NCBI RefSeq assembly: GCF_003991155.1
Contig: NZ_CP031293.1
DNA length: 64,000 nucleotides
Strand: one strand, 5' to 3'
From: Escherichia coli
GTDB lineage: Bacteria > Pseudomonadota > Gammaproteobacteria > Enterobacterales > Enterobacteriaceae
Part shown: piece after piece, positions 43,617 through 43,987 of the stretch
Numbering within the stretch: the first letter of the stretch is position 1
How the letters are laid out: the number at the start of each line of letters is the position of its first letter
Position numbers and translations under genes: made by a program
Notes under the pieces: generated by a model
The model's database searches: none
What the model saw: the letters and a program-made list of their open reading frames with translations, nothing else
Told to the model about the DNA's origin: nothing

Positions 43617-43744
43617 TGGAGTACTCCGAAACTCGGACGTATTGCGGATAATATCGACGCTGCATCAGTCATATTCTGATATAAGTCAGGGTTTGTGACG
43701 GCACAACGAAAAGATTTTGCTACGCTTATTCGTGATTCTGCAAA

Positions 43745-43760
43745 GTGGAATAAATTCCAC
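43745..43760. promoter_or_regulatory. Perfect palindrome GTGGAATAAATTCCAC in the divergent PPC/ECF-epd intergenic region (candidate operator)
   Basis: 7-bp arms with a 2-bp spacer; a further 'TTATTCCAC' half-site lies about 60 bp away (around 43818-43827). Confidence 0.35.
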
Positions 43761-43987
43761 AGGGGCGGGGCTGAAAACGTGACGTAAGTCAGATAATTGT
43801 CTTCTTTGACTGGACAATCATTCCTTTTATTCCACGTTTCGCTTATCCTAGCTGAAGCGTTTCAGTCGATTAAATGTTCGACAATTAACCAATCAGTCGC
43901 AGTTTGCGACAGGTAAGGTTTCCCCGAACGATTTGCTGGATTACTCTGTCTGGCAAATTTGCTCAGGGAAAACCTTGCAGGAGATCT

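What the first reader, a model, noticed from the sequence alone, without database searches (positions are those of the whole stretch)
43617..43987. Perfect palindrome GTGGAATAAATTCCAC plus a repeated half-site in the ECF-operon/epd divergent region
A 16-bp perfect inverted repeat at 43745-43760 and a second TTATTCCAC at about 43818-43827 lie between the divergently transcribed ECF operon and epd. Spaced dyads of this kind are typical operators for dimeric repressors, and this could be the control site of the accessory ECF operon.
Basis: seen in the sequence. Interest (0 to 1): 0.3.

Follow-up and report, generated by a model that had tools for sequence, protein, structure and literature searches.

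The report
Imperfect dyad beside lmiA promoter
A 16-base inverted repeat sits next to the already mapped promoter of the E. coli virulence regulator gene lmiA and its transporter operon, but only one half of it is conserved in related bacteria, so it is probably an ordinary promoter-upstream element and not a dedicated repressor operator.

Summary
The window is E. coli. The "ECF operon" is O-island 119: lmiA/z4267 plus four ECF-transporter genes, divergent from epd-pgk-fbaA. The repeat is real but not a perfect palindrome. It is GTGGAAT-AA-ATTCCAC (7+2+7) at 43745-43760. The extra TTATTCCAC lies at 43827-43835, not 43818-43827. Neither exceeds chance: P about 0.11 for such a dyad and about 0.30 for any 7-mer present three times.

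On published maps the dyad lies at -54..-39 of the PhoP-activated lmiA promoter, one base from its -35 hexamer. It lies at -111..-96 of the CRP/Cra-controlled epd promoter. TTATTCCAC is the -29..-21 spacer of the epd core promoter.

Across seven lineages from six genera, TGGAATAA is invariant (8/8 columns) and the right arm never is (0/7). Orthologous ECF operons elsewhere in the genome lack the motif. The same 7-mer recurs upstream of the epd CRP site in genomes with no adjacent lmiA, and Cronobacter carries a near-identical palindrome there.

The conserved half is most likely a promoter-upstream docking patch. An unidentified factor that recognises TTATTCC is not excluded. The elements that do travel with the operon lie nearer lmiA: an FNR-like palindrome and a leader palindrome.

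The parts
43745..43760 (.). The reported dyad GTGGAAT-AA-ATTCCAC (7+2+7). It spans -54..-39 of the lmiA promoter and -111..-96 (centre -103.5) of the epd promoter.
   Evidence: (I11)
43746..43753 (.). Conserved block TGGAATAA (left arm plus spacer). It is invariant in seven lineages and is retained in K-12-type E. coli that lack the island.
   Evidence: 8/8 invariant columns
43754..43760 (.). Right arm ATTCCAC. It is confined to Escherichia and has 0/7 invariant columns.
43827..43835 (+). It lies in the spacer between the -35 and -10 of the epd promoter (-29..-21).
   Evidence: 7/9 columns invariant, CAC variable
43738..43743 (-). Published -35 hexamer TTGCAG of the lmiA promoter
   Evidence: PMC7667037, mapped
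43714..43722 (-). Published -10 region TAGCAAAAT of the lmiA promoter
   Evidence: PMC7667037, mapped
43706..43706 (-). Published lmiA transcription start: a T, 90 nt upstream of the ATG
   Evidence: PMC7667037; one search confirms a T on the minus strand
43770..43788 (-). Published PhoP DNase I footprint CTTACGTCACGTTTTCAGC (-82..-64 of lmiA)
   Evidence: PMC7667037; exact match
43778..43793 (+). CRP-type site CGTGA-N6-TCAGA of the epd promoter, centre -70.5. It overlaps the PhoP footprint by 11 bp.
   Evidence: The sequence shows the site. CRP control and class I placement come from PMC2759082 and PMC5888115.
43844..43849 (+). epd -10 hexamer TATCCT
   Evidence: Inferred from the mapped TSS
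43856..43856 (+). Published epd transcription start, 132 nt upstream of the ATG
   Evidence: PMC2759082
43851..43866 (+). Cra (FruR) operator GCTGAAGCGTTTCAGT, covering the epd start site
43676..43689 (-). Conserved palindrome CTGAC-TTAT-ATCAG. It is FNR-like and is a candidate control site that does travel with the ECF operon.
   Evidence: 12/14 invariant; also present in Buttiauxella and Enterobacter
43648..43653 (-). -10-like TATTAT, 22 nt downstream of that palindrome. This is a putative proximal promoter and is inferred only.
43623..43640 (-). Conserved leader palindrome ACGTCCGAG-TT-TCGGAGT, which includes the Shine-Dalgarno GGAG
   Evidence: 17/18 invariant; also present in Serratia and Buttiauxella
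43185..43616 (-). lmiA (z4267 orthologue). It encodes a PPC/DUF296 protein and is the first gene of the operon.
40618..43261 (-). ECF transporter genes (S component, T component, two ATPases) of O-island 119
43988..45007 (+). epd (erythrose-4-phosphate dehydrogenase), the first gene of epd-pgk-fbaA

Best explanation
The 16-bp element is a lineage-specific 7+2+7 inverted repeat built around an older single block, TGGAATAA. It lies in the shared upstream region of two back-to-back, already characterised promoters. One is the PhoP-activated lmiA/ECF promoter of O-island 119. The other is the CRP-activated, Cra-repressed epd-pgk-fbaA promoter.

Shown:
- The dyad's position relative to both mapped start sites.
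- Conservation of one half only.
- Placement of TTATTCCAC inside the epd core promoter.

Inferred:
- The conserved half is an A/T-rich patch bounded by GG/CC. On the lmiA strand it reads TTTATTCCA at -47..-39, the position of a proximal UP-element subsite. It most likely works as a promoter-upstream docking patch, either for the RNA polymerase alpha C-terminal domain or for a factor that reads a single TTATTCC word.
- It is unlikely to be the operator of a dimeric repressor dedicated to the ECF operon.
- The second arm (ATTCCAC) arose within Escherichia. It is not needed for whatever the conserved block does in Salmonella, Citrobacter, Klebsiella, Leclercia or Atlantibacter.
For: Identity and context:
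- The window is E. coli. The island is present in about 3330 of 5426 complete genomes. Its gene content is a PPC protein plus ECF S, T, A and A' components.
- It is O-island 119, with lmiA = z4267.

Mapping:
- The published TSS, -35, -10 and PhoP footprint all match the window exactly. The footprint falls at -82..-64, as the paper states.
- The 73 bp around the dyad are 100% identical in O157:H7 genomes.

Conservation:
- TGGAATAA is invariant in 8/8 columns, the right arm in 0/7, and the 17 nt up to the CRP site in 3/17.
- E. albertii and E. whittamii each break one arm position.
- K-12-type genomes without the island still carry CTGGAATAA at the same distance from the CRP site.
- No dyad-like site lies upstream of the operon in Serratia, Proteus, Limnobaculum or Buttiauxella. 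The best matches there have 4-6 mismatches out of 14.

Link to epd:
- TTATTCC recurs 14-15 nt upstream of the epd CRP site in 14 sequences with no adjacent lmiA.

No RNA role:
- No Rfam match and no terminator. A 2-nt loop cannot form a hairpin.
Against: - Two separate lineages carry near-perfect palindromes of the same word: Escherichia (GTGGAAT-AA-ATTCCAC) and Cronobacter (GTGGAAT-TT-ATTCCAA). Each has roughly a 0.001-0.003 chance of arising at a fixed position. This hints at a dimeric reader.
- The -59..-38 stretch of the lmiA promoter matches the UP-element consensus poorly in its distal half.
- The 7-mer sits in opposite orientations and at different distances from the CRP site in the two groups of genomes. 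A simple docking-patch model does not explain this.
- The dyad is invariant in the seven island-bearing E. coli sequences I read: the window, two diverged strains and four sampled variants. With this little diversity, that is weak evidence.
Confidence: 0.4

Rival explanations
1. One reading: the dyad is the operator of a dimeric transcription factor (repressor or anti-activator) that controls the lmiA/ECF operon. Such a factor could, for example, block the PhoP-to-polymerase contact or the -35 hexamer.
For: - The arms are perfect 7-bp repeats with 16-bp geometry, typical of helix-turn-helix dimers.
- The dyad lies between the PhoP footprint and the -35 hexamer, one base from the -35.
- It is invariant in the E. 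coli sequences I read.
- It matches gal OE at 12/16 positions, and its TGGAA/TTCCA half-sites resemble IclR/AllR boxes.
Against: - The right arm is not conserved in any other genus with the same operon and promoter (0/7 columns).
- The motif is absent from orthologous operons in other genomic contexts.
- The central CG of LacI-family sites is missing, and the spacing is 1 bp short for IclR/AllR.
- It does not resemble the published LmiA motif, which has no match in the window at up to 3 mismatches.
- The published PhoP footprint does not cover it.
- The dyad alone is at chance level (P about 0.11).
Confidence: 0.2
2. The TTATTCC/GGAATAA words are sites for an unidentified factor that acts on the epd promoter together with CRP. 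In Escherichia and Cronobacter the site has become a full palindrome, placed about three and two helical turns upstream of the CRP site (about -103.5 and -92.5).
For: - The 7-mer is conserved upstream of the epd CRP site in two fixed configurations over at least 20 lineages, including 14 with no adjacent lmiA, while the flanking sequence is hypervariable.
- The Cronobacter palindrome lies 22 bp (centre to centre) from the CRP site, against 33 bp in E. coli. The difference is 11 bp, about one helical turn.
- K-12-type genomes keep the block after losing the island.
Against: - No regulator other than CRP, Cra and an FlhDC SELEX peak elsewhere in the region turned up in the papers I read.
- Orientation flips between the two configurations, and the shift is about 1.5 turns for the 7-mer itself.
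- Erwinia and more distant Enterobacterales lack the motif.
- One K-12-type variant has mutated it to CTGTAATAA.
Confidence: 0.2
3. The dyad is a chance or mutational product with no function of its own, such as a quasi-palindrome completed by template switching.
For: - The chance estimates are P about 0.11 for the dyad and about 0.30 for a 7-mer present three times.
- The window holds 51 comparable repeats.
- The arm outside the conserved block varies freely between genera.
- The AATAAATT core is already partly self-complementary.
Against: - The same palindrome appears independently in Cronobacter.
- TGGAATAA itself is perfectly conserved amid hypervariable flanks, so part of the element is constrained.
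Confidence: 0.2

Closest known systems
PhoP-activated lmiA (z4267) promoter of O-island 119, EHEC O157:H7 (Liu et al., mBio 2020, PMC7667037)
   Same: It is the same locus and sequence. The TSS, -35, -10 and PhoP footprint all map exactly onto the window. The dyad lies inside this promoter region at -54..-39.
   Different: In the passages I read, the paper does not describe the inverted repeat. It also does not mention that its PhoP footprint overlaps the epd CRP site, or the conserved palindromes nearer the gene.
CRP class I / Cra-repressed epd-pgk-fbaA promoter (PMC2759082, PMC5888115)
   Same: TTATTCCAC lies within this mapped core promoter. The dyad lies 33 bp upstream of its CRP site.
   Different: No binding site at -96..-111 is described for this promoter in the papers I read.
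LacI/GalR-family 16-bp operators (gal OE, GTGTAAACGATTCCAC)
   Same: 16-bp dyad geometry. The right half ATTCCAC is identical to gal OE, and 12/16 positions match overall.
   Different: The centre is AA rather than the CG step that characterises the family. The dyad is not conserved in orthologous loci.
IclR / AllR boxes (TGGAAATNATTTCCA; TTGGAAWAWTWTTCCAA)
   Same: TGGAA ... TTCCA half-sites around an A/T-rich centre.
   Different: Four bases separate TGGAA from TTCCA here, against five in both boxes.
UP-element proximal subsite (alpha-CTD contact at about -46..-38; for example, in rrnB P1 an A/T-rich stretch is followed by TTCCTC before the -35, recalled from memory)
   Same: Position -47..-39 directly upstream of the -35. 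An A/T-rich patch is followed by TTCC.
   Different: The match to the consensus AAAAAARNR is poor and the distal half is G+C-rich. This is an inference and was not tested.
NarL/NarP 7-2-7 sites
   Same: Two inverted heptamers separated by 2 bp.
   Different: The heptamer sequence does not fit TACYYMT.

Membership tests
   The right arm is invariant in 0/7 columns. Arm complementarity is 5/7, 4/7, 2/7, 2/7 and 1/7 in other genera. The dyad is absent in Serratia, Proteus, Limnobaculum and Buttiauxella.
   It spans -54..-39 of the published lmiA TSS and abuts the -35 hexamer.
   This needs EMSA, footprinting or ChIP. The published PhoP footprint lies at -82..-64 and does not include the dyad.
LacI/GalR-family operator | 16-bp dyad with a central CG step | tested here: not met
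   The centre is AA. The match to gal OE is 12/16.
IclR/AllR box | TGGAA and TTCCA separated by 5 bp | tested here: not met
   The separation is 4 bp (TGGAA-TAAA-TTCCA).
CRP site | TGTGA-N6-TCACA | tested here: not met
   The match is 4/10 in the 5-6-5 frame GTGGA-ATAAAT-TCCAC, and the key G at position 2 is missing (sequence). The true CRP-type site is at 43778-43793.
FNR site | TTGAT-N4-ATCAA | tested here: not met
   The dyad matches 6/10 in the frame TGGAA-N4-TTCCA. A better FNR-like site, CTGAy-N4-ATCAG (7-8/10), lies at 43676-43689.
NarL/NarP 7-2-7 site | Inverted heptamers TACYYMT with a 2-bp spacer | tested here: not met
   The geometry fits, but the heptamer GTGGAAT/ATTCCAC does not match TACYYMT (sequence).
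PhoP box | (T/G)GTTTA-N5-(T/G)GTTTA direct repeat | tested here: not met
   No such repeat lies within 43745-43760. The published box is at 43774-43790.
LmiA binding site | Similarity to TTAAAGTCGTTTGTTAA | tested here: not met
   No match in the window at up to 3 mismatches.
UP element (proximal subsite) | A/T-rich tract at -46..-38 that raises transcription through the alpha-CTD | tested here: inconclusive
   The position is met (-47..-39). The consensus match is poor, and function cannot be tested here.
Riboswitch or other structured RNA leader of an ECF transporter | Match to a curated RNA family or a stable conserved fold | tested here: not met
   The only Rfam hit is a chance-level one (E = 6). 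The dyad lies upstream of the TSS. The leader hairpin has a z-score of -0.86.
Intrinsic terminator | G+C-rich stem, a loop of at least 3 nt, and a T tract | tested here: not met
   The loop would be 2 nt, and the scan found no terminator-like site between the two genes; its only hit lies inside epd.

The most novel reading that the evidence does not exclude
TTATTCC/GGAATAA words are the recognition sites of an as yet unidentified regulator. This regulator would couple the divergent lmiA-ECF (virulence and metal-transport) promoter and the epd-pgk-fbaA (glycolysis and vitamin B6) promoter. In Escherichia and Cronobacter the site would have become a full 7-2-7 palindrome that binds a dimer on roughly the same DNA face as CRP, between the PhoP/CRP site and the lmiA -35.
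Probability: 0.2. Interest if true: 0.5.

Novelty: new member of a known kind. Interest (0 to 1): 0.22.

Why it matters
lmiA is a published activator of the LEE pathogenicity island and of acid resistance in EHEC and EPEC. Anything that gates its promoter is therefore relevant to virulence control.

The analysis places the dyad precisely in that promoter. It shows that the symmetric reading is not supported by evolution. It also points to better candidate control sites for the operon: an FNR-like palindrome, a leader palindrome, and a PhoP/CRP site shared with epd.

If a factor does read TTATTCC, it would link central carbon metabolism with a virulence regulator through one 150-bp divergent control region.

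Tried and rejected
- **Riboswitch or RNA element:** the Rfam scan of 43100-44300 gave only a chance-level hit. The leader hairpin is not significant.
- **Terminator:** no candidate lies in the intergenic region; the scan's single terminator-like hit is inside epd.
- **AT-hook in the PPC protein:** the translation contains no RGRP motif.
- **LmiA autoregulation through its published motif:** no match.
- **Literal sequence search in the literature** for the dyad and for the FNR-like palindrome: no papers.
- **Target-site duplication of the yggC stop (ATGGAWTAA) flanking the island:** rejected, because the yggC 3' ends differ between genera.
- **A second CRP site at the dyad:** some metagenomic variants match 8/10 by my own count. 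However, the conserved bases fall in what would be the uncontacted N6 spacer, so I rejected this.
- **DnaA box, Fis, IHF, sigma-54, sigma-E, ARG box, RcsAB box, MetR:** I compared these by eye from remembered consensus sequences, and none fits in register.
- **Word enrichment:** ATTCC/ATTCCAC counts are not significant once corrected for testing all words.
- **Limits of the searches:** the genome-contig scan with the PPC protein returned only seven close loci, so I fetched wider taxa through protein look-ups. The metagenome scan with the Cra site gave 22 epd promoters among 120 hits.

Full report
**What is there**

The window matches E. coli chromosomes at 100% identity. The 371-bp spacer 43617-43987 separates two divergent units. 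One is a five-gene minus-strand operon: a PPC/DUF296 protein at 43185-43616, then an ECF S component, a T component and two ABC ATPases. The other is epd-pgk-fbaA on the plus strand, with the epd ATG at 43988.

The sequence at 43745-43760 is GTGGAATAAATTCCAC. Its reverse complement is GTGGAATTTATTCCAC, so it is not a perfect palindrome. It is two perfect 7-bp arms around a non-symmetric AA.

**Is it more than chance?**

Not by itself.
- 11% of Markov-1 simulations of the region contain at least one 7-bp perfect inverted repeat with a spacer of 0-4 nt.
- The window as a whole contains 51 such repeats.
- ATTCCAC occurs three times in the region, but 30% of simulations contain some 7-mer three or more times.

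**What the locus is**

The five-gene block is O-island 119 of EHEC O157:H7 (z4267-z4271). z4267 is lmiA, a DUF296 regulator reported to activate LEE1, gadA and gadBC (PMC7667037 and PMC11657066).

The lmiA paper mapped the following:
- the TSS: a T, 90 nt upstream of the ATG;
- a -35 hexamer TTGCAG and a -10 region TAGCAAAAT;
- a PhoP DNase I footprint, CTTACGTCACGTTTTCAGC, at -82..-64.

All of these strings occur once in the window, in the expected register: TSS 43706, -35 at 43743-43738, -10 at 43722-43714, footprint at 43770-43788. The 73 bp around the dyad are identical in O157:H7 genomes.

On the other side, the epd TSS lies 132 nt upstream of the ATG, at 43856 (PMC2759082). This gives a -10 of TATCCT at 43844-43849, a Cra operator at 43851-43866 and a CRP-type site at 43778-43793, centred at -70.5.

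The dyad therefore spans -54..-39 of P-lmiA. It sits one base from the -35 and downstream of the PhoP footprint. It also spans -111..-96 of P-epd. The 'second half-site' occupies -29..-21 of P-epd, inside the core promoter spacer.

I collected the orthologous lmiA-ECF/epd spacer from these sources:
- E. albertii, E. whittamii and an Escherichia clade strain;
- Leclercia, Salmonella, Citrobacter koseri, Klebsiella oxytoca, Atlantibacter and Enterobacter.

I also collected the operon from Serratia, Proteus, Limnobaculum and Buttiauxella, where it is not next to epd.

Results in the alignment:
- The block TGGAATAA is invariant in 8/8 columns across seven lineages.
- The right arm has 0/7 invariant columns.
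- Arm complementarity is 6/7 in E. albertii and E. whittamii, 5/7 in Salmonella, 4/7 in K. oxytoca, 2/7 in C. koseri and Atlantibacter, and 1/7 in Leclercia.
- The operons in other genomic contexts have nothing better than 4-6 mismatches out of 14.

So the dyad as such is a feature of Escherichia. Only one half is old. Within E. coli the dyad is unchanged in the seven island-bearing sequences I read: the window, two diverged strains and four sampled variants. With five variable columns in 77 flanking ones, that is uninformative.

**Which promoter does the conserved half belong to?**

About 2100 E. coli genomes, including K-12-type strains, lack the island. In these, yggC is followed directly by the epd upstream region. 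They still carry CTGGAATAA at the same distance from the CRP site.

I then sampled epd promoters without an adjacent lmiA. These came from protein look-ups (Buttiauxella, Cronobacter, Erwinia) and from a metagenome scan with the Cra operator, which gave 22 epd promoters. Two fixed configurations emerge:
- **Configuration A:** GGAATAA lies 31-32 nt before the T of TGTGA (Enterobacter reads AGAATAA there). This holds in every lmiA-adjacent genus, in K-12-type genomes, and in one yggC-adjacent metagenomic lineage.
- **Configuration B:** TTATTCC, in the opposite orientation, lies 14-15 nt before TGTGA. This holds in 14 sequences that have tktA, yggC or another gene upstream.

Cronobacter carries GTGGAATTTATTCCAA, the same palindrome to 15/16 positions once the strand is turned. 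It lies 22 bp (centre to centre) from the CRP site, against 33 bp in E. coli. The 7-mer is therefore tied to the epd upstream region at least as much as to lmiA. Two lineages have independently completed it to the same palindrome.

**Mechanism**

Three things are shown: the position of the dyad, the one-sided conservation, and the identity of the neighbouring mapped sites.

The rest is inferred. The conserved half reads TTTATTCCA at -47..-39 on the lmiA strand, directly before the -35. That is where a proximal UP-element subsite or a promoter-proximal activator would sit. In configuration B it abuts the upstream edge of the CRP site.

I commit, at about 0.4 confidence, to an A/T-rich docking patch that does not need the symmetric partner. 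The patch would serve either the polymerase alpha C-terminal domain or a factor that reads one TTATTCC word.

Three rivals remain, each at about 0.2:
- a true dimeric operator for lmiA;
- an unknown co-regulator of epd;
- a neutral quasi-palindrome.

The independent Cronobacter palindrome is the main observation that keeps the dimer models alive.

**Comparison with known families**

| Family | What fits | What fails |
|---|---|---|
| GalR (gal OE) | 12/16 match | central CG is replaced by AA |
| IclR / AllR boxes | TGGAA...TTCCA half-sites | 4-bp rather than 5-bp separation |
| CRP | – | 4/10 match |
| FNR | – | 6/10 match |
| NarL 7-2-7 | geometry | heptamer sequence |
| PhoP box | – | no direct repeat in the dyad |
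| LmiA motif | – | no match at up to 3 mismatches |

No RNA family matches. The dyad is not a member of any family I tested.

**What else controls the operon**

Two elements travel with the ECF operon across genera and genomic contexts.
- **A palindrome CTGAy-TTAT-ATCAG at 43676-43689.** It is invariant in 12/14 columns and is also present in Buttiauxella and Enterobacter. It lies 22 nt upstream of a -10-like TATTAT. This would centre it at -41.5 of a putative proximal promoter starting near 43640-43641. It resembles the FNR consensus at 7-8 of 10 positions.
- **The sequence ACGTCCGAG-TT-TCGGAGT at 43623-43640.** It is invariant in 17/18 columns and is also present in Serratia and Buttiauxella.

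The Salmonella operon is reported to be anaerobically activated and has been suggested to import cobalt (PMC11481890). That report fits an FNR-type site. These elements are better candidates than the dyad for an operon-specific control site, but they are inferences only.

**Verdict**

The element is a previously undescribed but unremarkable member of a known kind: an inverted repeat in a characterised divergent promoter region. Interest is low.

Noticed in passing
window 43770-43793: The published PhoP footprint of the lmiA promoter (43770-43788) overlaps the CRP-type site of the divergent epd promoter (43778-43793) by 11 bp. PhoP and cAMP-CRP may therefore compete for one stretch of DNA that serves two promoters. 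The passages of the lmiA paper that I read do not mention this.
   Followed up: partly
window 43676-43689 and 43648-43653 (minus strand): The palindrome CTGAC-TTAT-ATCAG is conserved (12/14 invariant in seven lineages, and present in Buttiauxella and Enterobacter). It lies 22 nt upstream of a -10-like TATTAT, which centres it at -41.5 of a putative second promoter. It resembles an FNR site at 7-8/10 positions. The Salmonella operon is reported to be anaerobically activated (PMC11481890).
   Followed up: partly
window 43623-43640 (minus strand): ACGTCCGAG-TT-TCGGAGT is invariant in 17/18 columns across seven lineages. It is also present upstream of the operon in Serratia (about 110 nt before the start codon) and in Buttiauxella. 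In Enterobacteriaceae it includes the Shine-Dalgarno GGAG. The predicted RNA hairpin is weak (-8.5 kcal/mol, z-score -0.86).
   Followed up: partly
window 40618-43760; loci L010, L011, L012, L017, L007, L024: 'O-island 119' has the same gene order and the same divergent position next to epd in Salmonella, Citrobacter koseri, Klebsiella oxytoca, Atlantibacter, Leclercia and Enterobacter. It is present in about 61% of complete E. coli genomes. It therefore looks ancestral, and the K-12 state looks like a deletion. The lmiA paper instead describes it as a recent horizontal acquisition by EHEC.
   Followed up: partly
L002 5938-5958 (K-12-type yggC-epd spacer): Directly after the yggC stop codon, K-12-type genomes carry AATTTATTCCAGTTATTGCAG. 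This matches the minus-strand block upstream of and including the lmiA -35 (window 43757-43738). The alignment score is 26, against a shuffle mean of 16.1, SD of 2.2 and maximum of 25. With CTGGAATAA 27 nt further on, it forms a 10-bp inverted repeat.
   Followed up: partly
L023 about 2250-2275 (Cronobacter dublinensis epd upstream): GTGGAATTTATTCCAA is a near-identical palindrome to the E. coli dyad. It lies 22 bp (centre to centre) upstream of the epd CRP site in a genome where the upstream neighbour is an ADP-ribosylglycohydrolase gene, not lmiA.
   Followed up: partly
window 43794-43801 / 43880-43887 and 43871-43889: A perfect 8-nt inverted pair, TAATTGTC / GACAATTA, brackets the epd core promoter with 78 nt between the arms. 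The leader segment TTAAATGTTCGACAATTAA is highly conserved across genera.
   Followed up: no
window 40618-40646: yggC (plus strand) and the last ECF ATPase gene (minus strand) overlap convergently by 29 bp. The yggC C-terminus differs between island-bearing genomes (..GEYRLMD) and K-12-type genomes (..GRYHFKS).
   Followed up: partly
L001 4691-5006 (strain BH100N, upstream of the finding): The class II fructose-bisphosphatase gene (yggF/glpX paralogue) is annotated as broken into a pseudogene fragment and a short ORF in the genome identical to the window. It is intact in strain EC571.
   Followed up: no
Citrobacter, Klebsiella and Leclercia spacers (L011, L012, L007), homologous to window 43735-43755: These genera have a tandem direct repeat, TGGAATA-TGGAATA (CTGGAATATGGAATAAAT), overlapping the lmiA -35 position, where E. 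coli has CTGCAAAGTGGAATAAAT. Enterobacter has GGGAAT-GCGG-ATTCC nearby. The GGAAT/ATTCC word thus recurs in different arrangements.
   Followed up: no
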